64,000 bases of DNA from an uncultured Methanomicrobiales archaeon (GTDB lineage Archaea > Halobacteriota > Methanomicrobia > Methanomicrobiales > Methanospirillaceae), in NCBI GenBank assembly GCA_963758915.1, contig CAVWXH010000003.1, positions 128,001 to 192,000 on the forward strand, in the 5' to 3' direction. The notes under the pieces are model-generated. The model did no database searches and was not told the DNA's origin. It was given only the letters and a program-made list of their open reading frames with translations. Below, in pieces: positions 23,700-49,449 of this stretch. The position numbers were made by a program, and so were the translations under genes. Positions within the stretch are counted from its first letter, which is position 1; each line of letters starts with the position of its first letter.

Positions 23700-24768
23700 T
23701 CATTCCCCTCTCCCATAATGCATGGTAAAAAGCGCAAGGTACTCATCGGCATAACAGGTTGAATCACACCGGATAGTAAATTCAGGGCCGAGTTGTGAAG
23801 AGAAGAGCTCATTCCACTGGCTTCGCAGCATGTGGTAATCGGTGCGTACCCCTCTCTTTTGGGTCATGATGGAGACCAGTTCGGTCATCAGGAACGAGTC
23901 CACGCAGTCAGTGACCACGTCAACGGGAGCATCGTGGGCATAGACAAAGTCAATAATTCTCCCGTAGGACTGGTACACGGATACGGCAAGATCCGGTGAA
24001 TAGAGTTCGGGAAAATCGTTGTTTGCATCGAGCTCAAAAAGCAGGAAATGGTTAATCCATGGTTTTAACTGGGAAATATTGGCCCTTTTATCACAGGCAG
24101 GCATGTGGTGATAGGCCAGCGAGTCTGAGTGCAATATCATAGCGGTGGTCGATACGGCAGGAAAAATCCTGGATCCTGCAGTTTTCGGTCCTGATAAGGG
24201 TGTCGGGAAAGGCATCGGTAACAGTATTTTTTGCAAGGTTTATCATGGCTTCTGAAGGGTCTACCAGCAGTACTTCCCGGAGTTCGTCTATCCTCCCGAT
24301 ATCCAGCAGGTGGGAGAGGAGCCGGACGGTCAGTGCACCGTCCCCGCACCCGATATCCATGAAGGAGATGGGTTTCGTAAACCTTGGCAGCGTATGACCG
24401 GCCTGCCGGATGAAGTTCGTACGTGCCTTCATCATGACAGGGACACTGGCAAAGTGAATAAATGGCCGGGGGTCTTCAAATGCAAGGGCGGGCATAATAA
24501 GTTCACCGTTGTGTCGTTCCAGGAACCCAAGAAGAAACGTGGATGAAAACAACCCGTCCTCTTCATTCAGCGCCCCGGAACGGAGCCATTCAACAGCCAG
24601 GCGGTTGTTCCCCCTGGCTGCAAGGAGTGTCCCTGCATAAAAATGAAAGGCGGACTTGAGGTTTTCCCGGACATCCCCAATGAAAGAACCGGGGGGGATA
24701 TTCTCTTTTAAAATGTCACGGGAGAATCCAGCCCATTGTTTTTTTTCGTTTTCTGATAGAAACAGCAT
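23700..24768 (-). CDS. Class I SAM-dependent methyltransferase (frameshift near 24125)
   Basis: FMDIGCGDGAL motif I lies in 24091-24768, and SLAYHHMP continues in the 23700 frame. Confidence 0.75.
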
Positions 24769-32605: not shown

Positions 32606-32657
32606 AACCTTTATTTTAAAAAAGAAGATCACCCAACCCCGACACAGTCCAAGCTCC

Positions 32658-33608
32658 TTAAGCACCGCCTCTCCAAATTCCTTTGTCCCAGACAGATCCT
32701 CCAAGGTCCCGGGTCTTTATCCCCTTTGAAAATACCGTCTGAATCGCACATTCGATCGCATCCGACCCTGGATTATCCCCTGCATGCCGGAGCAGGAGCG
32801 CTGCACTCCGCAATGCTGCAACAGGGTTTGCCAGATTCCGGCCCGCAATATCAGGAGCACTGCCGTGGACCGGTTCAAAAAATGCATGGCGTTCCCCGAT
32901 GTTGGCACTGGGCAGCATACCAAGGCCACCGACGAGATACGCAGCAACATCCGACAGGATGTCCCCGAACATGTTCGTCGTCACGATAACATGGTACGAT
33001 GCCGGGTGGAGGAGCACATCCAGGCACAACGCATCAATGAGCCGGTCATTGCAATTCACCCCGGCAACCGACGCTTCGTGGAGGCATATGTCCCTGAAGA
33101 ATACGTCCGATTTCATCACGTTGGCTTTGTGGCCGATGGTCAGGGTCCTGCTCCCTGCAAGGTTGCAGGCAAACCGGGCGATACGCTCACATTCGTGGCG
33201 GGTAATGACCCGGAGCGTCGTCGCCCTGTCCACCCCCACCTCTTCGATCCCCGAGTAAAGACCTTCGATGTTCTCCCGCACAATGGTGATGTCAAACCCG
33301 TTGCCCTTCACCGGCCGTACATTGGCAAAGAGGTCGAGATCTTTTCGTATCCGAAGCAGCACGCTGCGGTAATCGGGAGCAGAAGGTGTTGTTATCGCAC
33401 CAAACAGGATGGCATCTGCCGATTTGAGCAATTCAAAGTCATCATCTCCCATCGCCTCGCCCGTCCGCTCCCACCGCTCGTACCCGACTTCCACCGGGAA
33501 TAATTCATACTCAGGGTGGAGCAGGGATAGCACATCCCTTGCAACGGGTATTACTTCCTTCCCGATACCGTCCCCGCATACGATTGCAACACTTCTGACG
33601 TTCGCCAT
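32658..33608 (-). CDS. aksF: Homoisocitrate/isopropylmalate dehydrogenase family protein (AksF)
   Basis: GDGIGKEV, LDLFANVRP, VRENIEGLY, HKANVMK, NMFGDILSD and FEPVHGSAPDIAG motifs; located in the aks operon. The 3' end is probably frameshifted. Confidence 0.85.
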   Translation of the reverse strand: MANVRSVAIVCGDGIGKEVIPVARDVLSLLHPEYELFPVEVGYERWERTGEAMGDDDFELLKSADAILFGAITTPSAPDYRSVLLRIRKDLDLFANVRPVKGNGFDITIVRENIEGLYSGIEEVGVDRATTLRVITRHECERIARFACNLAGSRTLTIGHKANVMKSDVFFRDICLHEASVAGVNCNDRLIDALCLDVLLHPASYHVIVTTNMFGDILSDVAAYLVGGLGMLPSANIGERHAFFEPVHGSAPDIAGRNLANPVAALRSAALLLRHAGDNPGSDAIECAIQTVFSKGIKTRDLGGSVWDKGIWRGGA

Positions 33609-34409
33609 TATTTCGATCTCCAGCCGTGTTACGAGGCCGTCGATGGCCTTGAGAATATCACGCGGCGTTGCACCCCAGTGGACAACCGCCCCGAATTTTC
33701 CATTATACCTGCCAATCCCGCCCCGTTCCTTCTGGCAGCACCGGGTGATGAACGGTTCTTCTGTGACAGTTCCGATGGGACAGATGTCGATCAGGGTAAA
33801 ATCATCCCCGTAACATTCCTGGTATATCCCGGAACTGGCCCTGCAGCCTGCTACCGTTTCACCACCAACCATCGGGTCTGCATCAAGAGTCCTCGGGAAA
33901 CCTGCCGCCCTGCAGGGGTGGACATCGGCACCGGTCTGCGAAATATCGGTGATATGGTGCACGAACCTGATATCAAGTTCCCCGAACAGCCCGATCGCCT
34001 CCAGCTCCTTTACCCGGTCTGACAGGACCGGGAGCGGGGGCTTCACGTCGTAGACATGAACGGTCAGCAGTGTTGCAGGGTCAGGGTCGAGCACGAATGT
34101 CACGTGTTCGTCGTGCCCGGAAAAGATAGTGCAGCGTCGCCCTGATTCCGTTGCAAGCCGGATGAGCCCGGCCCGGTTGGCGATATTGACCTGTTCCGGG
34201 TACCAGGTGACCTCATCCGCGGACGCTATCACTTCCTCGGCGATCACCTTCCTCATCAGCCCTTTTTCGGCGGGATCGGTTGTCACCCGGACGATCTCAT
34301 GGCCGGTACCAGTCTTGTGGATGAGGTACTGCGAGAGAAAATACACGCGTCTCCCGCACGGTTCCGTATCCGCATAGCCGATGTCTTTGTATTCACGGGG
34401 GAAGATCAT
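33608..34409 (-). CDS. Conserved Cys-rich hypothetical protein (possible metal/Fe-S binding)
   Basis: VYFLSQYL, HPC, AGC, DICP, RCC and VHWGA motifs. Removing one base at ~33625 gives ...TRWRSK* with a TAATG overlap onto aksF. Confidence 0.75.
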
Positions 34410-34879
34410 GGCTTCTTTGACCTCCAGAGGGGAACAAGCCCGCCTGCAAGAAGGATCTCCTTCATCCTTGCAGACAGGGGCCGGATTGGAGCACTGGAGC
34501 CTCCGCAGGAAACAACCCCTTTGTCAAGGTCAATGATCACCTCGTCGCCATCGGCACAGTGGCATTCCCCTTCAACAACCGGGAGTCCCACGTTTATGGC
34601 GTTACGGAAGAATATCCGGGAGAAGGAGGGGGCGACAACAGCCTGCAGCCCTGCTTCTTTAAGGGCAACGGCGGCCTGTTCGCGTGAAGACCCGCACCCG
34701 AAATTCCTGCCTGCAACAATGACCGATCCTTTGAGCCTGGCCCCGAGCGACGGGTCGAGGTCTTCGAATACATGTTCGACCCAGACCGTCCGGTCCTTTG
34801 TCCGGAGATACCTCCCGGCGATGATGACGTCGGTGTCGATATCGGGCCCAAGGCAGATCGCCTTCCCTTCAATGTGCAT
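34406..34879 (-). CDS. aksE: Homoaconitase small subunit (LeuD/HacB)
   Basis: DIDTDVII.GRYLRT (the YLRT loop is typical of homoaconitases), NFGCGSSREQA and RIFFRNAIN motifs. Confidence 0.88.
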   Translation of the reverse strand: MHIEGKAICLGPDIDTDVIIAGRYLRTKDRTVWVEHVFEDLDPSLGARLKGSVIVAGRNFGCGSSREQAAVALKEAGLQAVVAPSFSRIFFRNAINVGLPVVEGECHCADGDEVIIDLDKGVVSCGGSSAPIRPLSARMKEILLAGGLVPLWRSKKP

Positions 34880-34882
34880 GAT

Positions 34883-36091
34883 TCACGCCTCCGGGACGGT
34901 CAGGACGCCGGTCAGGGCGCTTGCTGCCGCCGTTGCAACCGAGGCGAGATACACGCTGCCACCAATACCCATCCGGTTCGTAAAATTACGGTTTGCCGTC
35001 GAGAGGCAGACTTCACCTTCCCCGATTACCCCCATATGTGCCCCGAGACAGGGGCCGCAGCCGGGTGTGCCGATCGTGCAGCCTGACGAGATAATGGTCG
35101 AGAGGACACCCGTATCGGCTGCTTTGCGGAGGACTTCCGCCGAGGACGGGATTACGATGGTCCTCACGTTCACCTTCTTACCCCGGACGATTGAAGCAAA
35201 ACGTTGTAAATCTTCAAAACGCCCGTTTGTGCAGGTACCGACAAACACCTGGTCAAGGGGCAGCCCTTCAAGCGATTCAACGGGTCTTGCCGAATCGACC
35301 CGTGGCGGCACGGCAACCACGGGGACAAGGTCCGACAAGTCAATCGTTATCTCTTTTCCATACGAGCAGTGCTCAGGTACCTGGTTTTCCACCCGGTGGC
35401 CGAACTGCAGGAGGTACTGGCGGGTCACGTCATCGGCATAAAAGAGGCCGGTTTTTGCACCGGCTTCAGTTGAAAGATTTGAAATGGTGAGCCGGCCTTC
35501 CATGGAGAGCGATTTCGTCCCGTCCCCGACATACTCTAATGCCTGGTAGGACGCTCCCTCCATGCCGAGCTGGGAAATAACCGTAAGGGCCAGGTCTTTC
35601 GCCTCAACCGGATAGTTCAATGTCCCTGACAGGTGGATGCCGATTGTTTCGGGAACACGGAACCACGTAGAACCCGATGCCCAGATGGCAGCCATATCGG
35701 TCGCCCCTACACCTGTTGCAAACGCACCGAATGCACCAAGGGTACAGGTGTGGGAATCGGCCCCGACCACGACCTCCCCGGGGAGCACCTCCCCTTCACC
35801 CATGAGCTGGTGACAGACACCGCCCCCGATATCGGAGAAATGGATCCCGTGTGACCTTGCAAACTCCCTGAGCTCCTTCTGGAGCGTCGCGGTAGTGCTG
35901 TTGTTTGCCGGGACGATGTGGTCGAAGAGGATATACAGTCGTTCCGGGTGCGCCGGGCCCGGGCAACCCATCTCCTTCCAGGCTTCGAGGGTGAGTACAC
36001 CGGTACCGTCATGCACGTATGCCCGGTCAACCTGTACATCGACATAGTCCCCGGCCCCTGCACCGAGGATCCGTTCGGAAAGCGTCCTCAT
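34883..36091 (-). CDS. aksD: Homoaconitase large subunit (LeuC/HacA)
   Basis: HDGT, DHIVP, GVCHQ, GADSHTCT, GTCTNGR, PGCGPCLG and STANRNF motifs. Confidence 0.9.
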   Translation of the reverse strand: MRTLSERILGAGAGDYVDVQVDRAYVHDGTGVLTLEAWKEMGCPGPAHPERLYILFDHIVPANNSTTATLQKELREFARSHGIHFSDIGGGVCHQLMGEGEVLPGEVVVGADSHTCTLGAFGAFATGVGATDMAAIWASGSTWFRVPETIGIHLSGTLNYPVEAKDLALTVISQLGMEGASYQALEYVGDGTKSLSMEGRLTISNLSTEAGAKTGLFYADDVTRQYLLQFGHRVENQVPEHCSYGKEITIDLSDLVPVVAVPPRVDSARPVESLEGLPLDQVFVGTCTNGRFEDLQRFASIVRGKKVNVRTIVIPSSAEVLRKAADTGVLSTIISSGCTIGTPGCGPCLGAHMGVIGEGEVCLSTANRNFTNRMGIGGSVYLASVATAAASALTGVLTVPEA

Positions 36092-37221
36092 GCCAGTGAC
36101 CCCTCTCCCTGGACTCTCTTAATCAGTTCAAGAAGGCGTTCGGGAGTAACCACCGTTTTGTGCTCCCCTTCAGTTTTCACCAGTTCAAGCACACGGCATA
36201 CCTGGCCTTTCGAAAGCTGGAACCCGAGTGCAGATACCACGTATTCGAGCGCCTTCGACCCGGTATGTTTCCCGAGAATGAATTTACGCTCGCCACCGAC
36301 CATTTCCGGGGAGAAATATTCGTACGTTTCCGGGTCCTGGAGAATTGCAGCGATATGGATGCCACTCTCGTGGGAAAACGCATGGGCACCCACGACCGGC
36401 TGGGTCCTTGCCACCGGAATATTGGATGCTTTTTCAACCAGTTTTGAGAGGTTCTGCAGGTGGGTGAGGTCATACCGTTCTACCCCTGCTTTCATGCGGA
36501 GGGCTACGAGAACAGACTCAAGGGGAGCGTTCCCCGCCCGTTCGCCAATGCCATTGACCGTTGTATGGAGCTGGAACGCCCCGGCCTCTGCAGCAGTAAT
36601 CGTGTTCGCCGCAGCGAAACCCATGTCGTTATGGCAGTGTGCACAGACCGGGACACGGACGGTTGATACGAGGTCCCCCATTACCTCGTACATCTCAAGC
36701 GGGGTGAGGCACCCGACCGTATCCGCAAAAGACAGGAGGTGGGCACCGTGGTCTTCACCCTGGCGAAATACTTCCTTTAAGAAACCACGGTCTGTCCGGG
36801 AGGCATCTTCAGCGGCAAACCGGACTGCAATCCCATGGTCGTGGACGAATTCAACGATACCAAGTGCCGCCGAAAGGACCTCCTCCCTTGGTTTTTTGTA
36901 TTTATGCCTGATATGGAGGTCAGAAGTTGCGATGAAAATACTGACCAGGTCTACATCGCAGTCTATCGCACACTCGGCGTCCTCTTTCCGGGCCCTTGCA
37001 AGGCAACAGACCCGTGCATCAAGGCCCATCGCTGCGATCTCGGTCACGCACTTTTTTTCTTCTGCTGATACGATGGGAAACCCGGCCTCGATTACTTCGA
37101 CCCCGACATCGTCGAGGACGCGGGCAATCGACTTCTTTTCATCGCAGGTGAATGATACACCCGGCGTCTGTTCTCCATCCCGGAGCGTCACATCGCAGAT
37201 TTCAACATTCCACGGTTTCAT
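36088..37221 (-). CDS. aksA: Homocitrate synthase (AksA; no LeuA regulatory domain)
   Basis: DVTLRDGEQTPG, HCHNDMG, GIGERAGN, HESGIH and LGKHTG motifs; ~377 aa. Confidence 0.88.
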   Translation of the reverse strand: MKPWNVEICDVTLRDGEQTPGVSFTCDEKKSIARVLDDVGVEVIEAGFPIVSAEEKKCVTEIAAMGLDARVCCLARARKEDAECAIDCDVDLVSIFIATSDLHIRHKYKKPREEVLSAALGIVEFVHDHGIAVRFAAEDASRTDRGFLKEVFRQGEDHGAHLLSFADTVGCLTPLEMYEVMGDLVSTVRVPVCAHCHNDMGFAAANTITAAEAGAFQLHTTVNGIGERAGNAPLESVLVALRMKAGVERYDLTHLQNLSKLVEKASNIPVARTQPVVGAHAFSHESGIHIAAILQDPETYEYFSPEMVGGERKFILGKHTGSKALEYVVSALGFQLSKGQVCRVLELVKTEGEHKTVVTPERLLELIKRVQGEGSLA

Positions 37222-38499
37222 GGTGTCTCCCTTCCGGACAGTTCCCTTCAATAATCACAACTACCGGCGATTCCCGGCGGACGAGAGTTTCCCGGAGGCG
37301 GGCTTCATCATCAGCCCGGCAGATTACGGGGTTGGCCCAGGCAATATAGGGGAGGATATCGTAGGCCTGCTGCCCACCGGTCATCCCCATGCAGTTGTTT
37401 TTCATTATTATGCACAGCAACGGGGTTTTTTTCTCAAACACGTCGATCAACGCAGGGAGCCCGGAATGAAGCAGTGCATAATCGCCGGTAAGTGCAACGC
37501 CCGTGCTTTTCGCAGCCACCCCGATTGAAGACCCCATGCCATAACTGACAAGGCTGGTTTTAAACGGCGGGTTCATGCAGAGGACGCAGCACCCTGCATC
37601 ACAGGTGACCAGAAATCCCCCGTTCGTCCAGGATCTTTATTGCCAGGATAAAGGGGCAGTCCTTGCAGAATGACCGGTAAAAACCACGGTCTTCCCTTCG
37701 CTCCGGTTCCGTGTATGCCGGGGGGTACCATCCTCCGGTGTTCCCTGACAAACGGTCTCCCAAGTTCTTTTACCTCTTTTAACCTGCCGAGCCCGCCGTA
37801 GGAGGATACACGGTAATTATTCTGGATATCTCCCCGGGAAGGGACTGGTTTATCCCCGGCCCCTGCAGCACCAACGAGGGCGGTTGTCCCGTTCATCCGG
37901 TTCAGTGGCGATTTTTCAGACCACTCACACATCGGTCCGAGCAGGTTTCTCGCCCGTTCAACCCTCCCTTTCATGGTGAGGTGTAACGGGGCAATCGTCC
38001 CGGTTTTTCCCTTTCTTTCGGCGTTCCCGGGGGTTACTTCTGCTTCGAGAAGGTCCGGGGTAAGGCGGAGGATCACGATCCTTGAAAATGATTCCGACGC
38101 CCTGAATGCCTCTTCTACGGCTTCGTGGATGTTATCCGGGCCGGGTTCTATTACCGGTACCTCGGCGAGTTCCCCGTAATATCTCGAGTCCTGGGCATTC
38201 TGGGACCCCTCGGCCACCGGGTCATCCCCGGCTACAATGACCACACCGGCGATAAGTCCCTGGGTAGTCGCCTCGACAAACGGGTCTGCACAGGCATTCA
38301 ACCCGACATTTTTGAGGATTACTGCGGCTCTCCTGCCGGAAAGCGAATCGCCAAGGGCATATTCTACTGCCACCTTCTCGTTTATGACCGATTCAGCACC
38401 TGTTTTTTCCAGCACCCCGCTGACAGGAAAACCGGGTACCCCGTAAAACCGGTCTGCGGCAGCAAGGAGTGCCTTCGTTATTGCATCTTCACCTTTCAT
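37202..38499 (-). CDS. ThDP-dependent enzyme, IorA-like but truncated (frameshifts at ~37600-37720)
   Basis: GVPGFP, INEKVAVEYALG and GDDP..GSQNAQDSR; the repaired junction reads FCKDCP...CDAGC; ThDP motif GDYALLHSG...KNN. No C-terminal ferredoxin domain. Confidence 0.8.
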
Positions 38500-39464
38500 A
38501 GCGGCTCTCCCGGGACGAGGTCACAACCCCTGCACCGGACACACATGGTCAGGGCGTTCCGGGGGTCCAGTCCTTCATCCTGTAATGCTTTTTCATGATA
38601 TCCGGCAATCAGGAGCATCCGTTCAGCACCCGGCCTGCTGGAGCCGGAAAATCCTGCAATCGGGTTCAATGGCCTGATAACAGGAATTACCCCCATTGTT
38701 GTGAGTTCCCTGATACATGCATCCATCTCTTCATCCGTCTCTCCAAGGCCGAGAATTACGTTTGAAAACACGTGGCCGCGTCCGAATAACTCTACTGACT
38801 TCTGAAGGACCCGGATAATGAGATCACGGTCATGGCCCGGGCATAATGAGGCAAACAATTCCGGAGTGGCGCATTCAAGGTTGAACTTTACTTCCTTTAC
38901 CCCGAGTCCGTGCAGGCGGCCGGGTGTTTGTTCTGTCGGGTAAATTGAGACCCCGATCGGGAGACCGAACACTGCCAGGTCACGGACAACCTCGCAGACA
39001 TACTCTTCTTCCTCGTAAATGTCGGAATATACACCGCTTGTTATGGAGATTGCATCAATCCGGTCTTTTATTCCATCGACCATGGCATGGATTTCCTCGA
39101 TTGATTTTCTCCGCTTTGGCAGGCGCGGGACATTGCAGTAACGGCAATTGAAGATACAGCCGCTGCTGACGGTAATATAGGCCTGTTCCGGGCAGTGCAG
39201 GCCAACCGGGTCAAGCCGGCCGGGCAGCACAATTTCACCATAACGGAGTGTTGCAGCCCCTTCACCTGCATGGATAATTTCAACGGGGCTTGTCTCTGAA
39301 CGTGCAAACCGCACCCTCATACCATCGGATGAAAAGAAGACAGACCCTTCTCCCCCTGCGCCCGGACCTGCGGATGAACTCGAAAGGTAAGGAGTCGCAT
39401 CTTTTCCGGTGAGCCGTGCTTTTCCAACGGCAAGGAGGGCTGCTTTTAATTCCTGTCCGTGCAT
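38496..39464 (-). CDS. Radical SAM protein (biotin-synthase-related) with extra Cys ligands
   Basis: GCIFNCRYC radical SAM motif, N-terminal HCP and C-terminal CVRCRGCD. Starts MHGQELK. Confidence 0.85.
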   Translation of the reverse strand: MHGQELKAALLAVGKARLTGKDATPYLSSSSAGPGAGGEGSVFFSSDGMRVRFARSETSPVEIIHAGEGAATLRYGEIVLPGRLDPVGLHCPEQAYITVSSGCIFNCRYCNVPRLPKRRKSIEEIHAMVDGIKDRIDAISITSGVYSDIYEEEEYVCEVVRDLAVFGLPIGVSIYPTEQTPGRLHGLGVKEVKFNLECATPELFASLCPGHDRDLIIRVLQKSVELFGRGHVFSNVILGLGETDEEMDACIRELTTMGVIPVIRPLNPIAGFSGSSRPGAERMLLIAGYHEKALQDEGLDPRNALTMCVRCRGCDLVPGEPL

Positions 39465-40340
39465 AAGGTCAGGGCCTCCTCGTATCTTCGTGTAAAACGG
39501 AATTGCCGCTACTGCACCAATGATCCCACGACCATTCCTCACGATCCGCAGGTTGATATCATCGATATCCAGGATCAATCCCTGCGTCACTTCGCCACGT
39601 TTCACCTTCCACGCGAATTCCAGGAGGTTTGAGGGGTCAAACCCCGTGTATACCGCCATGCCGGTATCTTCAGAAAGGGTATAGCGGTCCAGCAGTCCTG
39701 CAAAATGATCGACCAGGCGGGCAGGGTCCGATGATGCAAATTCGGCAACAATGCTGACACAGTTTTTTGTCCGGTACGGGACAGGGTACAACTGCACAAT
39801 CGTATGCGACAGGTAGCGGGACTGCTGGTCCTCAACAGCCCTCGCAATATTATGGACGAGTGTCCAGGTTGCCCCCTGTTCAGGTGTATCGGTATCGTCC
39901 ACGCCAATCAGGACACGCTGTCGCCTTGGCAGCCAGACTGTTGAACCGGCACGTTTTCCACCCCCGGAAGGGTCATTTGTACTTCGCGTAACACCCTGTG
40001 CATAGGAACGGCATATGGACGCACCGACACCACCGCCGCCAAGCCCTACGTAAGATACCCGGATTTCATCCTCATCAACGGAAACAGCACTTATTCCGGC
40101 CGGGAAATGTGAGCCCTCAAGTGCAAGGTCCGACTCCCCCGGGCGCAGCATGTACCGCATGGTCGGTCCGATATTCCTGGCAGAACGGACAAGCGGGCTC
40201 TGTGCATAATGGTGTTGTGCCCACATCGCACCCCCGGTACAATCGAAAAATTCGATCAGTTCGACACGTTCGCCGGCGGAATCCGCTACCGCGACAATCT
40301 GCGGGTACCGTATGATATACGGTTCAGGAAGGTTCACCAT
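39446..40340 (-). CDS. mmp11: Methanogenesis marker protein 11 (TiaS kinase-domain-like), paralogue 2
   Basis: IGVDDTDTPEQGATW, QLYPVPYRTKNC and GRGIIGAVAA motifs. Removing one A at ~39488 gives ...FYTRYEEALTLCTDRN*. Confidence 0.82.
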
Positions 40341-41283
40341 AGAGACCTGCCGCTTCGATGCCCCTGTTGGCCCATAATACAGACCCTAATGCACCAATTC
40401 TGCCCTTTCTTCCTGCAGTGTCGATAAACCTGATCCCGGCAGATGCCGCAATATCCTCGGCATCCTTCAGGCTTACGATCTCGGTCTTTATCCTCCGGCA
40501 GGCACCGTTCATTATTTTCGGGAATTCAATACCCCGGTAGTAGGCAATACCCGTGTCGTCACTGAAAGAAAACTCCTCGATATAATCGCGGACATAGGCA
40601 AGAAGTGCATCAACCGACCCGGGTCTGACGGCAAAATTCAACGCAGACCCCACGCAGTTGGTTGTTTTTTCCGGGACCCGCGGGTTGAGCTGGATCAGCC
40701 TCATATTAAGAAATTCCACGCCTGGTACCGGGCACTGTTCACCGCATTTCAGGGCAAGGACCCAGGTGGCTCCTTTTTCAGATGTGTCAGTGTCATCGAT
40801 CCCGATGGTGACCTTCTCGTATAGCGGTGAAAAAATACGTACCCGGTTCACCCTCGCACCGCCGACTACCAGGTCCTCTTCAGTCGGGTATTCAGCCCGG
40901 GTCACACCCGGTGCCTGCGGAAGGCAGGCAGCAATACCAAGACCGGCACCGGCAATACCTGCCCAGGATGTGACGACCTCGTCACCCTGCACCTCGACAC
41001 CTTCGAGGGCCTGGCCCCCGATATTCTCCCCGGCAGCCCCGAAATTCGCCTGAAATGAGCCGATTCGTGCCAGCATCCTCATTTCAGTGCCTTCAACACG
41101 GGCAGAGACTGTGGCCCCTTTTGCACGGATGCGGTTCATCGCGTCCCACTCGATAGGTCCCCTCGCATGGCACTGCTCGATGATCTCTGCAAGGCCGGCA
41201 CCCTTGTCCACCATCACGAGAAACCGCCGGGAAAAGAGTGATCCATACTTCGTTTTTATTTCTTCGGGCTTTTTGACAATCAT
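40324..41283 (-). CDS. mmp11: Methanogenesis marker protein 11 (TiaS kinase-domain-like), paralogue 1
   Basis: IGIDDTDTSEKGATW, QLNPRVPEKTTNC and GRIGALG motifs. Confidence 0.82.
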   Translation of the reverse strand: MIVKKPEEIKTKYGSLFSRRFLVMVDKGAGLAEIIEQCHARGPIEWDAMNRIRAKGATVSARVEGTEMRMLARIGSFQANFGAAGENIGGQALEGVEVQGDEVVTSWAGIAGAGLGIAACLPQAPGVTRAEYPTEEDLVVGGARVNRVRIFSPLYEKVTIGIDDTDTSEKGATWVLALKCGEQCPVPGVEFLNMRLIQLNPRVPEKTTNCVGSALNFAVRPGSVDALLAYVRDYIEEFSFSDDTGIAYYRGIEFPKIMNGACRRIKTEIVSLKDAEDIAASAGIRFIDTAGRKGRIGALGSVLWANRGIEAAGLYGEPS

Positions 41284-41380
41284 TTTGTCACCGGAAATAT
41301 CGTTAACAGAATAATCGGCGATATATTATATAAGAAGATCGATCGGGTTACCCCGGCCCGGACCAGGAAGGAAAAAAAGA

Positions 41381-42274: not shown

Positions 42275-42780
42275 ATACCTCGGACAAAGAATGTACCATG
42301 GCCGTGATAGAATAAATTTTCTAAGTGGTTTTCAAATTGTTGACAGGAGGACGGTAGTACATACGTGGCGGAAGTTACTCACGGATGGACGGGATAAGAT
42401 AACGGGTAATCCTTCGAACATGCAGATTACCACTATTTCTCCCGATAAATCAGCCCAGGATAACCCCGAAATAATCACAAATTATGCTGTAATTTTTGTT
42501 TTTACGCGATATTTCATCTGTAAATACCTCATCACAAAAAATCGAGTCGCATCCAATCATAAACCATATAATGCTATACACTAAAGGGCATAGTTTGCCA
42601 CCTGCCCGGGTTACAGGAAACGAAAGAAGTGAGAGAAACGCCGGGATGCCCCGGTTCGTCGAAGTATCACCGGGGTCTGGCTAAAGCCAGGGATTCCACA
42701 GAACCTGGAGTACCAGCCAACTATTATTACGGGCGACGGTGACCAGTGTCCTGTCACAATTATTTCCGTGGATTGTGAAG

Positions 42781-43692
42781 ATGGCAGGAGATCAGAAGTT
42801 ACCGGGAGACCCTTATGAAGCAGGCGACAGTAATGGACTGGCACATCACCTGATTGCCATCTTTGCCGTGGCAATTGTTATCCTGATAATTGCAGGAGGA
42901 ATTCTTCTCAGCGAGGCAGGGAAAAATCCGCCGCCGGTTCCGGAAAAAACTACCGGGGAACGTGATGTCCTTTACCAGGTATCAACCATTGATGCACTGG
43001 TACTGGGTGCATATGAGGGGGTGCAACCTGCGGGCGAAGTGGAAAAACATGGGAATTTCGGCATCGGAACATTCGATGCACTTGACGGGGAGATGATTGC
43101 CGTTGATGGCCGGTACTACCAGGTAACATCAGATGGTGCAGTCCGTGAGGTTGACCCCTCGGTGATGGTGCCGTTTGCAACCGTTACATTTTTTGACAAC
43201 GATTCGACTATTACCGTAAGCGGGAGCAGGAATTTGTCCACCTTCACAAACGGGATTGATAAAGGACTCCCTTCGAAAAACCTGATCTATGCGGTCAGGG
43301 CTGACGCTACGTTCCCTGAAATGGTCGTCCGGGCCATTCCAAGGCAGGAAAAACCATATCCTCCGCTTACCGAGGCAGCCACCCACCAGGTGGTTACCAG
43401 GCTGGAGAATACATCAGGGACCATTGTGGGGTTCTACCTTCCTGCATTTATGAAAGGGGTCAATATGCCCGGGTACCACCTCCACTATATTTCATCAGAC
43501 AGGAAAAGCGGAGGACATATCCTTGATTTTACCCCGCCTGATACCCCGGTCATGGTGATAATTGATCAGACCCCGGATTTTTCCATGTCTGCCCCCACAA
43601 CAGGTGATTTCGCAGAGATGAACTTTTCCGGGGATGTTTCAGCAGGATCTCATCCAGGTCGAACGTTAAGCGGAAATGAAGTCCCGGGATAG
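42781..43692 (+). CDS. Acetolactate decarboxylase family protein with an N-terminal TM anchor
   Basis: YQVSTIDAL..G.YEG, GNFGIGTF..LDGEMI, PFATVTFF and Zn ligands GYHLHY...GGHIL. Confidence 0.9.
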   Translation: MAGDQKLPGDPYEAGDSNGLAHHLIAIFAVAIVILIIAGGILLSEAGKNPPPVPEKTTGERDVLYQVSTIDALVLGAYEGVQPAGEVEKHGNFGIGTFDALDGEMIAVDGRYYQVTSDGAVREVDPSVMVPFATVTFFDNDSTITVSGSRNLSTFTNGIDKGLPSKNLIYAVRADATFPEMVVRAIPRQEKPYPPLTEAATHQVVTRLENTSGTIVGFYLPAFMKGVNMPGYHLHYISSDRKSGGHILDFTPPDTPVMVIIDQTPDFSMSAPTTGDFAEMNFSGDVSAGSHPGRTLSGNEVPG

Positions 43693-46405: not shown

Positions 46406-47320
46406 ATGGAAGCAAAACATAAATACGCATTTTATCTCGGCTGCATTGCCCCCAACCGGTACCCCGGTTCCGAAGCGGCTGCAATCAAGACAAGTAAGAA
46501 ACTCGGTATCGAACTTGTGCCCCTTAAGGGTGCAAGCTGCTGTCCTGCACCGGGTGCATTCGGTTCCATTGACTTAAATGTCTGGTATGCAATGGCAGCA
46601 CGTAACCTCGTGCTCGCCGAGCAGATGAAAATGGACATTGCCCTGCTTTGCAATGGGTGTTACAAGTCAATCTGGGAAGTAAACCACAAGCTGAAACACC
46701 ACGATGAACTCCGTGACGGGGTAAACGAGGTGCTGAAAACGATCGACATGGAATACAAAGGCTCGATCAATGTCTACCACCTTGCAGAACTCCTCTATGA
46801 CAAGAATATCGTCGGTGTTGACAAGATCAGGGACAGCGTGACCAACCCCCTGACGGGTGCACGGATTGCAGTCCACTATGGATGTCACCTCGTAAAGCCA
46901 AGGAAAGACCGTGAATTTGAAGCGACGGAGTTACTGAATACCGAAGCACCGACCTGGATGGAAGAACTGGTTGCAGCCCTTGGTGCAACTCCGGTAGAAT
47001 ACCGCCAGAAGATGCAGTGCTGCGGTGCCGGTGGCGGTGTACGGGGCTACGATATTGTCCATGCTCTCGATATCGCCAACGAGAAACTGATCAACCTGCA
47101 GGAAGTAAAGGTTGATGCCCTTACCGATATCTGCCCGTTCTGTCAGCTCCAGTTTGACCGTGGCCAGATTGAAATCGAAGAGAAGTTCGGGGTTAAATAC
47201 AACCTTCCTGTACTTCACTTCTGTGAACTGCTTGGACTGGCACAGGGAATGAGCCCGCAGGACCTTGCACTTGATCTCCATGCGATCAGCTGCGAACCGT
47301 TCCTGCAGAAGGTGCTGTGA
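46406..47320 (+). CDS. hdrB: Heterodisulfide reductase subunit B
   Basis: LGCIAPNRYPG, SCCPAPG, CNGC, HYGCH, CCGAGGG and CPFCQLQFD motifs. Confidence 0.96.
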   Translation: MEAKHKYAFYLGCIAPNRYPGSEAAAIKTSKKLGIELVPLKGASCCPAPGAFGSIDLNVWYAMAARNLVLAEQMKMDIALLCNGCYKSIWEVNHKLKHHDELRDGVNEVLKTIDMEYKGSINVYHLAELLYDKNIVGVDKIRDSVTNPLTGARIAVHYGCHLVKPRKDREFEATELLNTEAPTWMEELVAALGATPVEYRQKMQCCGAGGGVRGYDIVHALDIANEKLINLQEVKVDALTDICPFCQLQFDRGQIEIEEKFGVKYNLPVLHFCELLGLAQGMSPQDLALDLHAISCEPFLQKVL

Positions 47321-47334
47321 AGGAGGTACTGAAC

Positions 47335-49449
47335 ATGGCTGAAAGAAAAACCAAGAAAGAAACAGCGTCCAAGAAAGAGACCACCGCTGCAGTAAAGAAG
47401 CAGGCACCAGCGAAAGCCGCAATCGGAGAACAACCCGAAGGCAAGAAAGAGGCACGGATTGGGGTTTTCATCTGCCACTGTGGTACAAACATTGCCGGTT
47501 CAATGGATATCAACGCAGTACAGGAATATGCAAAAACCATTCCGAATGTCGCCTATGTTGACAACTACAAGTACATGTGTTCGATGCCCGGGCAGGCTGT
47601 GATTGATAAGGCAATCCATGATAACAAGCTCACCGGTGTCGTCGTCGCTGCATGTTCACCACGTCTCCACGAACCAACGTTCAGGACGGCAACCAAGGAA
47701 GGTGGCCTCAACCCGTTCAAGTTCGAGATGGCAAACATCCGCGAGCAGAACTCGTGGGTGCACATGCATGACCAGGAAGGGGCAACAGACAAAGCAAAGG
47801 ACGCAATCCGCATTGCCGTTGCAAAGGCATCGCTCCTTGAAGACCTCTTCCCGAAGAGTGTTCCCGTTGAGAGGGCCGCAATGGTCGTCGGTGCAGGTGT
47901 TGCAGGAATGCAGGCCGCTCTCGACCTGGCAAACGCCGGTATCAAGACCTACCTGATCGAGAAGACCCCGACCATTGGTGGTCGCATGTCCCAGCTCGAC
48001 AAGACGTTCCCGACCCTCGACTGTTCACAGTGTATCCTTACACCGAAAATGGTGGATGTCGGAAGGAGCGAGAATATCGAGCTGATGACGTATTGCGATG
48101 TTGAATCCGTAGAAGGGTACATCGGTAACTTCGATGTCACCATCAGGAAGAAAGCCCGTGGTGTCCTTACTCCCAAAGAAGCAGAGGCAAAGGGTATTGT
48201 CGGTGGTGGCTGCAACGGTTGTGGTGACTGTGAGACTGCATGCCCGGTCGTCCAGCCAAACACCTTTGAAGAAGGAATGAAGCCACGAAAGGCAATCTAT
48301 ATCCAGCACCCGCAGGTCGTCCCCCTGATTTACACCATTGACAAAGAGTCCTGTATCAAGTGTGGAATCTGTGTCACGGTATGCGGTAATGAAAAGAAGG
48401 CTATCGACCTCGACCAGGAAGATGAATTCGTCAAGGTAAAGGTAGGTACAGCAATTCTTGCAACAGGGTATGATATCTTCCCAATCGAGAACAAGACCGA
48501 GTGGGGCTACAAGAGGTTCGAAAACGTCATTACCAGCCTCGAGTTCGAACGCCTGATCTGTGCATCCGGTCCGACCGGCGGCCACATGGTCCGCCCGAGT
48601 GACGGGGTCGCACCAAAGAAGGTCGCATTCCTCCTCTGTGCAGGTTCAAGAGATAATACCGGGATCGGCAAGCCCTATTGTTCAAGGTTCTGCTGCATGT
48701 ATTCACTGAAACATGCCCACCAGCTCATTGAAAAGATGCCCGGTTGCCAGCCCTATATCTTCTACATGGATATCCGGTCCTTCGGTAAGATGTACGAAGA
48801 GTTCTATTACCGTATCCAGGACGAGGGTGCAAAGTTCATCCGTGGCCGTGTCTCGAACATTCTCGAAGACCCGGTATCAAAGAACCTCATGGTGTTTGCA
48901 GATGACACCCTGCTTGACCGGCCGATGAAACTCGAAGTAGACCTTGTCGTGCTTGCTGCAGCAGTACAGCCCGCAGCCGACACGAACCGGACCAGGAAAC
49001 TCTTCGGTGTATCCTGTTCCATGGACGGATGGCTCCTTGAAGCACACCCGAAACTGAACCCATGCGGTACCACCACAGCCGGTGTTTTCCTTGCAGGGGC
49101 CTGCCAGGGACCAAAGGATATCCCTGACACGGTTGCTTCAGCAGAAGGCGCTGCATCAGCAGCAAGTATCCCGATCCATACCGGACACGTTGAACTTGAA
49201 CCGTACTTCGCCCAGTGTATCGATGAGAAATGCGCAGGATGCGGTATGTGTGTCAATTTATGCCCGTACACCGCACTTGCACTCGTAGAAAAAGATGGAA
49301 GAAAAGTCATGCAGGTTACAGAAGCGAAATGTAAAGGCTGCGGTACCTGCGGTGGATTCTGCCCTGGTGGCGCAATCTGGATGAACCACTTTGCAACACC
49401 ACAGATTATTGCTCAGATTGATGCATTCCTCCTCGGAGGCGAGCAGTAA
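47335..49449 (+). CDS. hdrA: Heterodisulfide reductase subunit A
   Basis: IGVFICHCG.NIA, ACSPRLHE, ANIREQ, QLDKTFPTLDC, YCSRFCCMY and inserted plus C-terminal ferredoxin motifs. Lys-rich N-terminal extension. Confidence 0.97.
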   Translation: MAERKTKKETASKKETTAAVKKQAPAKAAIGEQPEGKKEARIGVFICHCGTNIAGSMDINAVQEYAKTIPNVAYVDNYKYMCSMPGQAVIDKAIHDNKLTGVVVAACSPRLHEPTFRTATKEGGLNPFKFEMANIREQNSWVHMHDQEGATDKAKDAIRIAVAKASLLEDLFPKSVPVERAAMVVGAGVAGMQAALDLANAGIKTYLIEKTPTIGGRMSQLDKTFPTLDCSQCILTPKMVDVGRSENIELMTYCDVESVEGYIGNFDVTIRKKARGVLTPKEAEAKGIVGGGCNGCGDCETACPVVQPNTFEEGMKPRKAIYIQHPQVVPLIYTIDKESCIKCGICVTVCGNEKKAIDLDQEDEFVKVKVGTAILATGYDIFPIENKTEWGYKRFENVITSLEFERLICASGPTGGHMVRPSDGVAPKKVAFLLCAGSRDNTGIGKPYCSRFCCMYSLKHAHQLIEKMPGCQPYIFYMDIRSFGKMYEEFYYRIQDEGAKFIRGRVSNILEDPVSKNLMVFADDTLLDRPMKLEVDLVVLAAAVQPAADTNRTRKLFGVSCSMDGWLLEAHPKLNPCGTTTAGVFLAGACQGPKDIPDTVASAEGAASAASIPIHTGHVELEPYFAQCIDEKCAGCGMCVNLCPYTALALVEKDGRKVMQVTEAKCKGCGTCGGFCPGGAIWMNHFATPQIIAQIDAFLLGGEQ

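What the first reader, a model, noticed from the sequence alone, without database searches (positions are those of the whole stretch)
32658..41283. Nine-gene aks operon carrying the chemistries missing from late coenzyme B biosynthesis
Seen: mmp11-mmp11-radical SAM-ThDP enzyme-aksA-aksD-aksE-Cys-rich protein-aksF are co-oriented and translationally coupled (ATGA/TAATG or 17-20 bp overlaps, one 3-bp gap), next to ftr and the hdr/fwd/mcr block. Established: AksA/DE/F elongate 2-oxoglutarate to 2-oxosuberate. To my knowledge the later coenzyme B steps lack firmly assigned genes: decarboxylation to a C7 unit, thiol introduction, ATP-dependent coupling to threonine, and phosphorylation. Inference: the extra genes map onto those steps. 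The ThDP enzyme could decarboxylate 2-oxosuberate, and the radical SAM and/or Cys-rich protein could introduce sulfur. The two TiaS-like Mmp11 proteins could do carboxyl activation, amide formation and Thr phosphorylation. This would make it a near-complete CoB biosynthetic gene cluster. An alternative reading is a pimelate/biotin or lipoate-like branch.
Basis: partly seen in the sequence, partly recalled or inferred. Interest (0 to 1): 0.85.

Follow-up and report, generated by a model that had tools for sequence, protein, structure and literature searches.

The report
Candidate coenzyme B biosynthesis gene cluster
A methanogen operon joins the known genes for the first half of coenzyme B synthesis to four kinds of uncharacterised enzyme genes that fit the chemistry of the unassigned second half, which makes an old open question testable.

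Summary
The cluster is real and conserved, but the window's copy is damaged. Relatives carry nine separate, overlapping genes: mmp11-like, mmp11, radical SAM, IorA-like ThDP enzyme, aksA, aksD, aksE, DUF7714, aksF. The window shows eight ORFs (two fusions, one split) because of eight 1-nt indels. These are absent from two congeners and from related metagenome contigs, so they are most likely assembly errors.

New here:
- DUF7714 (the "Cys-rich protein") is a full-length homologue of bacterial XcbA, the Fe-S thioaldehyde reductase that makes the thiol of coenzyme M. All five invariant Cys are shared.
- DUF7714 sits beside aksE/aksF in every lineage examined.
- The ThDP enzyme keeps an OFOR-type four-Cys set. 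It has the same phyletic pattern as DUF7714 and lies next to aksA or mmp11.
- Both Mmp11 proteins keep the TiaS kinase motif.

Against a universal role:
- ThDP and DUF7714 were not found in several other MCR lineages. DUF7714 was also not found in M. jannaschii.
- Mmp11 plus radical SAM occur in six MCR-less genomes.

Verdict: probably a lineage-specific coenzyme B supercluster. The case is good for the ThDP enzyme and DUF7714, weaker for Mmp11, and open for the radical SAM.

The parts
41322..41333 (-). TATA-box-like element 39 nt upstream of the first start codon; putative operon promoter
   Evidence: Read from the sequence. Inference only, no expression data.
40324..41283 (-). Mmp11-like paralogue (319 aa), TiaS-type kinase domain
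   Evidence: TIGR03280 200 bits, under the cut-off of 255.8. PF22641 TiaS_TCKD. Invariant DDTD...GATW motif. Present in 23 of 31 relatives.
39440..40340 (-). Canonical Mmp11 (about 297 aa in relatives). Its last residues are shifted by a 1-nt insertion near 39488, which fuses it to the next gene.
   Evidence: TIGR03280 330.6 bits, over the cut-off. Indel. The model matches the TiaS TCKD: 3amt, E 9e-8, rmsd 2.4 over 150 columns.
38496..39464 (-). Radical SAM protein (322 aa in relatives) with CX3CX2C and a C-terminal CX2CX2C
   Evidence: PF04055. Weak NF045502, LipS2 and BioB hits, all under their cut-offs. Invariant Cys. Met located.
37202..38499 (-). IorA-like ThDP enzyme gene, broken into three reading frames by 3 insertions and 1 deletion. 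A single ORF of 393-439 aa in relatives.
   Evidence: Invariant Glu, GDY...N ThDP motif and four invariant Cys. These Cys align weakly with Cys of the oxalate oxidoreductase beta subunit.
36088..37221 (-). AksA-type homocitrate/2-oxoacid synthase
   Evidence: PF00682 and PF22617. Two further LeuA/CimA-type genes lie elsewhere in the genome.
34883..36091 (-). AksD/HacA-type homoaconitase large subunit
   Evidence: TIGR01343 474.5 bits, over the cut-off. A separate leuC-like gene lies on contig C16.
34406..34879 (-). AksE/HacB-type homoaconitase small subunit with a YLRT loop
   Evidence: Best solved relative is 2pkp, homoaconitase small subunit: 128.5 bits, against 107 for the isopropylmalate-type subunits. 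The meaning of the YLRT motif is recalled.
33609..34409 (-). DUF7714, an XcbA homologue (266 aa in relatives). Its stop codon is lost through a 1-nt insertion near 33627.
   Evidence: PF24830 294 bits; NF052538 XcbA family 79.9 bits, under the cut-off of 150. hhalign against Xanthobacter XcbA: probability 98.6%, E 6e-16, 228 columns. Five Cys shared.
32658..33608 (-). AksF-type homoisocitrate dehydrogenase (325 aa in relatives). The C-terminus is altered by 1-nt insertions near 32692 and 32645.
   Evidence: PF00180; TIGR02088 350.6 bits. A separate leuB-like gene lies on C16.
32618..32623 (-). T-run after the last stop codon; possible terminator
   Evidence: Read from the sequence. Inference only.

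Best explanation

1. AksA, AksD/E and AksF lengthen 2-oxoglutarate to 2-oxosuberate. This is established for the family; here it is shown only by homology.
2. The IorA-derived ThDP enzyme, which keeps an OFOR-type four-Cys set and has neither a ferredoxin domain nor an IorB partner, decarboxylates 2-oxosuberate to the C7 aldehyde level (inferred).
3. The XcbA-like DUF7714 Fe-S protein reduces the sulfide adduct (thioaldehyde) of that aldehyde to 7-mercaptoheptanoate. This is inferred by analogy with XcbA, which reduces sulfoethanethioaldehyde to coenzyme M.
4. The Mmp11 proteins, whose TiaS-type kinase domain phosphorylates a carbonyl oxygen and a Thr hydroxyl in TiaS, would use ATP to activate the carboxylate for amide formation with threonine and/or to phosphorylate the threonine hydroxyl (inferred, weaker).
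5. The radical SAM partner has no assigned step.

The ThDP/DUF7714 module is specific to the Methanomicrobiales/Methanosarcinaceae/Methanocella-type lineages. Other MCR-bearing lineages must use other enzymes. The gene fusions and the split in this window are indel artefacts.
For: Conservation within the order:
- 20 of 20 relatives' loci have mmp11, ThDP, aksA, aksD and aksE in the same order, and 19 of 20 have DUF7714.
- 18 of 20 have the radical SAM.

Linkage outside the order:
- mmp11 is adjacent to ThDP in L031, L032 and L034.
- aksE-DUF7714 (L046) and aksE-DUF7714-aksF (L047, L049).
- ThDP-aksA-aksD-aksE-aksF-DUF7714 in L048 and L050.
- mmp11-(radical SAM)-ThDP-aks-DUF7714 in L036 and L037.
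- The M. mahii genome paper lists aksE as Mmah_0127 and aksF as Mmah_0129, which leaves one gene between them (passage).

Phyletic pattern in one sample of 201 genomes:
- DUF7714 is in 89 genomes. 84 of those have a McrA match, and the other 5 belong to families whose other members have one.
- High-scoring ThDP orthologues (54 genomes, at least 517 bits, ORFs of 446-588 aa) fall only in DUF7714-positive families.

XcbA link:
- tblastn of DUF7714 against 72,556 plasmids hits only 3 records. All are coenzyme M gene clusters of alkene-oxidising bacteria. One is Xaut_5051, just upstream of phosphosulfolactate synthase.
- hhalign probability 98.6%, with all five invariant Cys shared.
- XcbA is a [2Fe-2S] protein that converts sulfoethanethioaldehyde to coenzyme M (PMC9457059, passages).

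The Aks set is a third paralogue set, apart from the leuCDB-like genes. AksE is closest to the solved homoaconitase subunit.

Mmp11:
- D148, D149, D151 and T158 align with D8, D9, D11 and T18 of a TiaS-family structure.
- The fold matches.
- A third Mmp11-family paralogue is translationally coupled to homoserine dehydrogenase in G000 and in 8 of 8 other Methanomicrobiales loci. Canonical ThrB is over the cut-off in 0 of 31 genomes of the order. This hints that the family phosphorylates hydroxy-amino acids.

No BioF match and no BioB match over the cut-off in the genome.
Against: - ThDP-type and DUF7714 genes were not found in McrA-bearing genomes of families f8 (4 genomes), f12 (4), f15 (15), f16 (3) and f20 (2). 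DUF7714 did not ring in the control M. jannaschii. They therefore cannot be the universal enzymes.
- Canonical Mmp11 is present, next to a radical SAM of the same family, in 6 genomes with no McrA match: G073, G081, G088, G095, G210 and G083, at 94-99% completeness.
- Canonical Mmp11 was not found in f12 (0 of 4), and almost never in f15 (1 of 26, and that one is the paralogue type), although these carry McrA.
- The Mmp11-like paralogue is missing in 8 of 31 relatives. Methanosarcinaceae-type genomes have a single Mmp11.
- The radical SAM is missing from the locus in 2 of 20 relatives.
- XcbA's known product is coenzyme M, not coenzyme B.
- The four-Cys set of the ThDP enzyme suggests redox chemistry. 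Labelling work that I recall (White, not seen here) indicated non-oxidative decarboxylation.
- There is no expression, genetic or biochemical datum for any of the four extra families. DUF7714 has no solved structural relative.
Confidence: 0.55

Rival explanations
1. DUF7714 is the archaeal counterpart of XcbA in its known role. It makes the thiol of coenzyme M from sulfoacetaldehyde plus sulfide, either instead of or as well as the thiol of coenzyme B. Its place among the aks genes would then reflect co-regulation of the two thiol cofactors.
For: XcbA's demonstrated product is coenzyme M. DUF7714 is confined to the lineages that the J Bacteriol 2025 paper says use the cysteate-synthase route to coenzyme M (passage). 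The last coenzyme M step in Methanosarcina is still described there as non-enzymatic or possibly due to a marker protein. Canonical Mmp16 is over the cut-off in only 14 of 31 genomes of this order and not in this genome, so another thiol-forming enzyme is needed there.
Against: In every lineage examined DUF7714 is adjacent to aksE and/or aksF, or closes the aks cluster. I did not test for comDE or cysteate synthase beside it. It shares its phyletic pattern with the ThDP enzyme, which lies beside aksA or mmp11.
Confidence: 0.2
2. Mmp11 and its radical SAM neighbour form a separate module unrelated to coenzyme B. It might modify a protein, an RNA or another cofactor, or belong to thiol/sulfur metabolism. 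In Methanomicrobiales it merely shares an operon with the aks genes.
For: - The Mmp11-radical SAM pair is adjacent in f16, f17 and f8, including genomes with no McrA match and no ThDP/DUF7714.
- There it sits beside thioredoxin reductase, with a cysteate-synthase-like gene nearby in one genome.
- The radical SAM family is in 133 of 201 genomes and tracks MCR lineages more widely than Mmp11 does.
- Mmp11 was not found in 25 of 26 f15 genomes and 4 of 4 f12 genomes.
- TiaS relatives act on tRNA.
Against: Mmp11 lacks the RNA-binding parts of TiaS: it is 297 aa and scores 20-40 bits on NF040849 against a cut-off of 600. In three families outside the order, mmp11 is directly adjacent to the ThDP gene with no radical SAM between (L031, L032, L034).
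Confidence: 0.3
3. The ThDP enzyme is a 2-oxoacid:ferredoxin oxidoreductase that oxidatively decarboxylates 2-oxosuberate to a pimeloyl product for biotin or another pimelate-derived compound.
For: IorA/OFOR homology with the four Cys retained. The radical SAM shows weak likeness to BioB and LipS2.
Against: - No BioF match and no BioB match over the cut-off in this 94% complete genome.
- No ferredoxin domain and no IorB/gamma partner at the locus. The true iorAB pair lies elsewhere.
- The orthologues are found only in families that carry McrA.
- LipS2 scores 53.5 bits against a cut-off of 270.
Confidence: 0.07
4. The Mmp11-radical SAM and DUF7714-AksF fusions and the split ThDP gene are real features of this organism: bifunctional enzymes and a two-subunit or dead decarboxylase.
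For: The ORFs are open as given. No read set of the same strain was available to check them.
Against: - Every difference is a single-base indel unique to the window, against two congeners and against contigs from two runs.
- The ThDP gene needs three frames.
- The window and its congener both carry many frame breaks in otherwise conserved genes, including mcrB.
Confidence: 0.05

Closest known systems
XcbA of Xanthobacter autotrophicus Py2 (bacterial coenzyme M pathway)
   Same: Full-length homology: hhalign 98.6%, 228 columns. The same five Cys (PC, GC, CP, CC). Both are encoded inside a thiol-cofactor biosynthesis cluster. XcbA is a [2Fe-2S] thioaldehyde reductase.
   Different: About 25% identity, and below the NCBIfam XcbA cut-off (80 against 150 bits). 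It is archaeal, lacks XcbA's roughly 40-residue N-terminal extension, and lies next to aksE/aksF rather than a ComA homologue. The proposed substrate is the C7 thioaldehyde.
TiaS (tRNA-Ile2 agmatidine synthetase) and its TCKD kinase domain
   Same: The C-terminal 150 residues of Mmp11 have the TCKD fold and the DDTD...T motif in register.
   Different: No match to the rest of TiaS: NF040849 aligns only over profile positions 2-151 of 422. Mmp11 has a distinct N-terminal domain of about 140 residues with no fold match. There are three paralogues per genome besides TiaS itself.
Indolepyruvate:ferredoxin oxidoreductase alpha subunit (IorA) / 2-oxoacid:ferredoxin oxidoreductases
   Same: PYR and PP ThDP domains, the GDY...N motif, and the four-Cys pattern C-x2-C...GC...C.
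   Different: 393-513 aa instead of about 590-650. No C-terminal ferredoxin domain and no IorB beside it. Scores 154-315 bits against a cut-off of 651. The genuine iorAB pair lies elsewhere in the genome.
AksA / AksD-AksE / AksF 2-oxoacid elongation enzymes of Methanocaldococcus jannaschii
   Same: The same four families. The small subunit is closest to solved MJ homoaconitase 2pkp, with YLRT aligned.
   Different: Scores are below the NCBIfam equivalog cut-offs built on other methanogens. Here the four genes are clustered with four further families.
ComDE sulfopyruvate decarboxylase and Mmp16 (proposed ComF) of the coenzyme M pathway
   Same: The same two chemistries: ThDP decarboxylation of a 2-oxoacid to an aldehyde, then aldehyde to thiol (passage; White 2019 seen only as a reference listing).
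   Different: Unrelated protein families. Canonical Mmp16 is patchy in this order (14 of 31).

Membership tests
Aks 2-oxoacid elongation set (AksA, AksD/E, AksF) | Homology to the LeuA, LeuC/D and LeuB families | tested here: met
Aks 2-oxoacid elongation set (AksA, AksD/E, AksF) | A paralogue set distinct from the leucine/isoleucine set in the same genome | tested here: met
   leuC, leuD and leuB-like genes on C16, plus two further LeuA/CimA-like genes.
Aks 2-oxoacid elongation set (AksA, AksD/E, AksF) | Homoaconitase-type specificity loop (YLRT) in the small subunit | tested here: met
   YLRT aligns with YLRT of 2pkp. That this loop sets specificity is recalled, not seen in a paper here.
Aks 2-oxoacid elongation set (AksA, AksD/E, AksF) | Activity on 2-oxoglutarate, 2-oxoadipate and 2-oxopimelate | not testable with these tools
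   Needs enzyme assays.
XcbA family (NF052538) | Full-length sequence homology to XcbA | tested here: met
   hhalign 98.6%, E 6e-16, 228 columns. NF052538 E 1.9e-22 over profile positions 36-290 of 293.
XcbA family (NF052538) | Score over NCBIfam's curated cut-off (150 bits) | tested here: not met
   79.9-80 bits. It is therefore a sister family (Pfam DUF7714), not a member as curated.
XcbA family (NF052538) | Conserved Cys set | tested here: met
   C166, C189, C210, C224 and C225 are invariant in 6 archaeal and 2 bacterial sequences.
XcbA family (NF052538) | [2Fe-2S] cluster and thioaldehyde reductase activity | not testable with these tools
   Known for XcbA only.
Methanogenesis marker protein 11 (TIGR03280) | Score over the cut-off of 255.8 bits | tested here: met
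   The second gene scores 330.6 bits. The first gene scores 200.1 bits and does not meet it.
Methanogenesis marker protein 11 (TIGR03280) | Found only in MCR-bearing archaea (the marker property; the definition is recalled) | tested here: not met
   6 genomes are over the cut-off without a McrA match.
TiaS (NF040849) | TCKD fold with the acidic motif and Thr | tested here: met
TiaS (NF040849) | Full architecture with RNA-binding domains; score over 600 bits | tested here: not met
   19.7-39.9 bits, with only profile positions 2-151 of 422 matched.
Indolepyruvate ferredoxin oxidoreductase alpha (TIGR03336) | ThDP PYR and PP domains | tested here: met
Indolepyruvate ferredoxin oxidoreductase alpha (TIGR03336) | Score over 650.9 bits, a C-terminal ferredoxin domain and an adjacent IorB | tested here: not met
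   154.5 bits (short form) and 314.6 bits (long form, ending at profile position 534 of 595). The genuine IorA (838.7 bits) and IorB lie at G000:C3:257748-260098.
Radical SAM superfamily (PF04055) | CX3CX2C motif and a Pfam score over the cut-off | tested here: met
   56 bits against 29.5. C103, C107 and C110 are invariant.
Sulfur-inserting radical SAM enzymes (LipS2, LipA, BioB) | Score over the family cut-offs | tested here: not met
   LipS2 53.5 against 270. BioB 22.3 against 225. Lipoyl synthase 22 against 203.

The most novel reading that the evidence does not exclude
The late half of coenzyme B synthesis in Methanomicrobiales/Methanosarcinales/Methanocellales-type methanogens is carried out by three enzyme types new to cofactor biosynthesis:
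- an IorA-derived Fe-S ThDP decarboxylase acting on 2-oxosuberate;
- an XcbA-like Fe-S thioaldehyde reductase, possibly serving both coenzyme B and coenzyme M;
- TiaS-type kinases (Mmp11) that form the amide bond and/or the threonine phosphate.

More broadly, the Mmp11/TCKD family would be a family of small-molecule hydroxy-amino-acid kinases. It would include a non-orthologous homoserine kinase coupled to hom in an order that lacks ThrB.
Probability: 0.3. Interest if true: 0.9.

Novelty: new variant of a known kind. Interest (0 to 1): 0.78.

Why it matters
Coenzyme B is needed by every methyl- or alkyl-coenzyme M reductase. As far as I know, the genes for its last four steps have stayed unassigned since the pathway was traced by labelling. 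The 2011 Methanothermobacter genome review lists genes only for the elongation enzymes, and the 2010 M. mahii genome paper lists only aksA, aksD, aksE and aksF.

This cluster, together with the XcbA homology found here, gives named candidates for each step. These can be tested in genetically tractable Methanosarcina, which carry the mmp11-ThDP and aksE-DUF7714-aksF pairs. Assigned genes would complete methanogen metabolic models. They would give new targets for methane inhibitors and help heterologous MCR expression.

The lineage-restricted pattern also predicts a second, still unknown solution in ANME-1-type, Methanococcales-type and other MCR lineages.

Tried and rejected
- The single genome-contig scan, run with the Mmp11 alignment, returned only close relatives: 80 loci, almost all titled Methanoregula, Methanoregulaceae, Methanolinea, Methanoculleus or Methanomicrobiales. 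It gave no view of other phyla. As a result I could not test Methanococcales, Methanobacteriales, Methanomassiliicoccales or Thermoproteota lineages beyond the two named control genomes.
- Literature searches found no paper that assigns late coenzyme B genes, and none that mentions Mmp11, TIGR03280 or DUF7714. One search was swamped by the human MMP11 gene. Subscription journals and supplements (for example Tn-seq gene tables) were not visible, and they may hold essentiality data or even an assignment.
- Foldseek and VIA-align searches with the DUF7714 model gave no match above the noise. The best was Z 8.2 to a generic alpha/beta domain, with HypD at Z 5.8.
- A phmmer search of the ThDP C-terminal part against solved structures found nothing. 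Only the profile search gave weak OFOR-beta alignments.
- The protein atlas search for the ThDP enzyme gave only 'IorA family' clusters.
- Complex prediction with Mmp11 and the radical SAM gave 'no answer'. It counts neither for nor against binding.
- No sequencing run held more than 0.13 of the sampled words. The two raw-read runs laid 0 reads. The indels therefore could not be checked against the strain's own reads.
- The HdrED-depletion transcriptome paper names only MA4615 as a coenzyme B gene.

Full report
WHAT IS IN THE WINDOW

On the minus strand between 41283 and 32658 there are eight tightly packed ORFs.
- 40324-41283: Mmp11-like protein (TIGR03280 200 bits, cut-off 255.8; TiaS_TCKD).
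- 38496-40340: a 614-aa ORF with a canonical Mmp11 half (330.6 bits) and a radical SAM half.
- 37573-38499 and 37202-37576: two ORFs that match the N- and C-terminal ThDP domains of IorA.
- Then an AksA-type synthase, AksD- and AksE-type homoaconitase subunits, and a 583-aa ORF with DUF7714 followed by an AksF-type dehydrogenase.

Junctions are 17- and 20-nt overlaps, three ATGA overlaps and one 3-nt gap. A TATA-like element lies 39 nt upstream of the first ATG, and a T-run follows the last stop. ftr lies just upstream. A FwdF-like polyferredoxin, HdrC, HdrB, HdrA, FwdB, McrB and McrA follow on the other strand.

THE WINDOW'S COPY IS DAMAGED

The window is G000:C3:128001-192000. G000 is an 18-contig genome, 94% complete. 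Named close relatives in the genome-contig collection are almost all titled Methanoregulaceae or Methanomicrobiales MAGs.

In relatives the layout is nine genes. In congener locus L022 these are 319, 297, 322, 431, 377, 402, 157, 266 and 325 aa. Eight of the nine loci whose ORFs I listed have one ThDP ORF of 393-439 aa. The ninth, L021, has the ThDP gene and aksA split.

A three-way alignment with two congeners (89% and 92.6% identity) shows that the window alone has 1-nt insertions near 39488, 37844, 37725, 37612, 33627, 32692 and 32645, and a 1-nt deletion near 37795.
- The insertion near 39488 shifts the end of mmp11 into the overlapping radical SAM frame.
- The insertion near 33627 removes the DUF7714 stop.
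- The four indels in the ThDP gene explain why its middle reads in a third frame.

Contigs of related strains (mostly 90-99% alike) from two public runs differ from the window by exactly these indels at all five sites between 37400 and 39700. No other indel was listed. These are relatives, not the same strain: the best run held 0.13 of the words, and two raw-read runs laid nothing.

Over 54 kb aligned with congener G006 there are 123 frame-changing indels.
- 7 of 71 G006 ORFs are frame-broken in the window. Examples are 51739-53447 and 53460-54258.
- mcrB, at 341 aa, matches only 328 of the family's 433 positions.
- 11 of 69 window ORFs are broken in G006. This count includes the two fused ORFs and one opposite-strand ORF inside the cluster.

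Both assemblies are therefore rich in indels. I read the fusions and the split as assembly artefacts (about 0.9), not as biology.

CONSERVATION AND LINKAGE

TIGR03280 matched in 31 of 31 genomes of the order (29 over the cut-off). The Mmp11-like paralogue sits directly upstream in 23 of 31.

Of 20 loci fetched:
- all 20 have mmp11, ThDP, aksA, aksD and aksE in the same order;
- 19 have DUF7714 and 16 have the Mmp11-like gene;
- 18 have the radical SAM, which is missing in L021 and L027.

A dehydrogenase-like ORF follows DUF7714 in the nine loci. Outside the genus I judged this from the tblastn hits and the N-terminal GDGIG motif only.

Outside the order. The family names attached to the handles are my inference.
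- f7 (Methanosarcinaceae-type): mmp11 is next to ThDP (L031, L032), with aksE-DUF7714(-aksF) elsewhere (L046, L047).
- f23: ThDP-mmp11 (L034) and aksE-DUF7714-aksF (L049).
- f10: ThDP, aksA, aksD, aksE, aksF, DUF7714 (L048), with mmp11 alone (L033).
- f14 (Methanocella-type): mmp11-(radical SAM)-ThDP-aksA-aksD-aksE-aksF-DUF7714 (L036, L037), or two sub-clusters (L035, L050).

The M. mahii genome paper gives aksE as Mmah_0127 and aksF as Mmah_0129, which leaves one gene between them (passage). The four extra families thus form a neighbourhood network around the aks genes: DUF7714 with aksE/F, ThDP with aksA or mmp11, and mmp11 with the radical SAM.

PHYLETIC PATTERN

One sample of 201 genomes of the phylum was used for five searches.
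- DUF7714: 89 of 201. It is all-or-none by family: every sampled genome of f1-f7, f10, f14, f23 and f27, and none of the other 16 families.
- McrA: 113 of 201. 84 of the 89 DUF7714 genomes have it. The 5 without belong to families whose other members do. 29 McrA genomes lack DUF7714: f8 4, f12 4, f15 15, f16 3, f20 2, and f21 1 (below the cut-off).
- ThDP profile: 54 genomes at 517 bits or more, with ORFs of 446-588 aa. All are in f7 (23 of 25), f10 (13 of 13), f14 (12 of 12), f23 (5 of 6) and f6 (1). Genuine IorA (ORFs about 596-651 aa) scores about 298-323 bits. The short Methanomicrobiales form fell under my E-value limit, apart from that one f6 genome (G028), and is documented by synteny instead.
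- Canonical Mmp11: 100 of 201. This includes six genomes without a McrA match (G073, G081, G088, G095, G210, G083). It was not found in f12 (0 of 4), and in only 1 of 26 f15 genomes, where it is the paralogue type.
- Radical SAM profile: 133 of 201. This includes f15 (24 of 26), f12 (4 of 4) and f20 (2 of 2).

A tree of 42 radical SAM sequences splits the family into two clades (100/100 support).
- One clade has the canonical CX3CX2C. It contains the Methanomicrobiales cluster copies, f7, f10, f14, f23 and one f15 copy.
- The other has a CX8CX2C variant close to TIGR04043 (253.7 bits). It contains f8, f9, f12, f15, f16, f17 and f20.

Controls: DUF7714 rings in M. acetivorans but not in M. jannaschii. 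Mmp11 and McrA ring in both.

THE FOUR EXTRA FAMILIES

DUF7714
- It has five invariant Cys in 12 sequences.
- The model is confident (pLDDT 87) but has no solved relative.
- The 120 best of 952 homologues are named only 'hypothetical' or 'DUF7714'.
- NCBIfam gave a sub-threshold, full-length hit to the XcbA family.
- tblastn against 72,556 plasmids hit only three records: Xanthobacter autotrophicus Py2, Nocardioides sp. JS614 and Mycolicibacterium chubuense NBB4.
- In the two I opened (Xanthobacter, Nocardioides), the hit lies in a gene cluster with phosphosulfolactate synthase, fumarate/adenylosuccinate-lyase-type genes and a PLP enzyme. In Xanthobacter the hit is Xaut_5051, directly upstream of the synthase, that is xcbA.
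- hhalign gives 98.6% probability, and all five Cys are shared.
- XcbA is a [2Fe-2S] protein (-372 mV) that converts sulfoethanethioaldehyde to coenzyme M. It was reported as having no known homologue (PMC9457059, passages).
- The aldehyde-to-thiol step is the chemistry needed after decarboxylation of 2-oxosuberate. The pathway with an aldehyde intermediate is stated in PMC3087415 section 14.5. White's labelling papers are recalled.

ThDP enzyme
- It has the PYR-domain Glu, the GDY...N motif and four invariant Cys, C-x2-C...D-x-G-C...C.
- In a weak profile alignment these Cys fall on Cys of the oxalate oxidoreductase beta subunit.
- That these Cys bind the proximal [4Fe-4S] cluster in OFORs is recalled.
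- The enzyme lacks the ferredoxin domain and IorB. The genuine iorAB pair lies elsewhere in the genome.

Mmp11
- Both paralogues keep IG(V/I)DDTD...GATW.
- D148, D149, D151 and T158 align with D8, D9, D11 and T18 of 3u02. The catalytic role of those TiaS residues is recalled.
- The model's C-terminal half superposes on TiaS. The N-terminal half has no match.

Radical SAM
- Besides CX3CX2C it has an invariant C-terminal CX2CX2C.
- It has only weak, sub-threshold likeness to LipS2, BioB and lipoyl synthase.

SUPPORTING CHECKS

- The genome has a separate leuC/leuD/leuB-like set and two more LeuA/CimA-type genes, so the cluster's genes are the Aks set.
- AksE is closest to the solved homoaconitase small subunit.
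- BioF gave no match, and BioB gave none over the cut-off. This weakens a pimelate/biotin reading.
- Canonical Mmp16, the proposed coenzyme M thiol-forming enzyme (passage), is over the cut-off in only 14 of 31 genomes of the order and not in this one. DUF7714 may therefore serve coenzyme M too.

JUDGEMENT

- The case that the ThDP enzyme and DUF7714 act on the product of the Aks enzymes is good. It rests on linkage in five lineages, an identical phyletic pattern, the right chemistry and a characterised homologue.
- The case for Mmp11 as ligase and/or kinase is plausible but weaker, because Mmp11 also occurs without MCR and is missing from some MCR lineages.
- The radical SAM has no assigned role.
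- None of this is experimental.
- I found no paper that states these assignments. Subscription journals and supplements were not searchable.

Noticed in passing
G000:C3:265104-267198 (outside the window; locus L152:10105-12199): A third Mmp11-family paralogue (374 aa, TIGR03280 118 bits) overlaps the end of a homoserine dehydrogenase gene. The same pair is adjacent in 8 of 8 other Methanomicrobiales loci and in G060 and G033, but not in L161-L163. Canonical homoserine kinase ThrB is over the cut-off in 0 of 31 genomes of the order. This makes it a candidate non-orthologous homoserine kinase.
   Followed up: partly
window 51739-53447, 53460-54258, 23703-24768, 54607-55632 and others: Several conserved genes outside the cluster are frame-broken relative to congener G006 (7 of 71 ORFs). 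mcrB matches only 328 of 433 family positions. G006 in turn has breaks where the window is intact (for example hdrA, 47317-49449). Both assemblies look rich in indels.
   Followed up: partly
L040 (G073), L041 (G088), L042 (G095), L043 (G118): In family f8, Mmp11 and a variant (CX8CX2C, TIGR04043-like) radical SAM are translationally coupled. This holds in genomes with no McrA match as well. In two of them the pair lies next to a thioredoxin reductase gene. In L041 a cysteate-synthase-like gene (273 bits, cut-off 325) lies 0.7 kb downstream.
   Followed up: partly
31 genomes of the order: Canonical Mmp16 (TIGR03287) is over the cut-off in only 14 of 31 genomes. In 29 of 31, including G000 at C9:136218-137102, there is a paralogue of about 510 aa that matches only profile positions 1-290.
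   Followed up: no
L021 (G001) and L027 (G007): Two congeners have no radical SAM gene between mmp11 and the ThDP gene, only a gap of about 120-170 nt. I did not check whether a copy lies elsewhere in those genomes.
   Followed up: no
L044 (G083) and L045 (G140): Mmp11 (L044) or the Mmp11-like paralogue (L045) lies next to methanogenesis marker 4 (MtxX). In L044 homoserine dehydrogenase sits directly upstream of the radical SAM-Mmp11 pair.
   Followed up: no
window 42739-43692 (+): An ORF matches acetolactate decarboxylase over the cut-off (231 bits against 180.65), between ftr and the fwdF-like/hdr genes. Its role in a methanogen is unclear.
   Followed up: no
protein P0031: One DUF7714 protein (285 aa, 379 bits) is labelled by its source as coming from an Alphaproteobacteria MAG, on an 11-kb contig. 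It is probably a binning error, since it groups with the Methanosarcina-type proteins.
   Followed up: no
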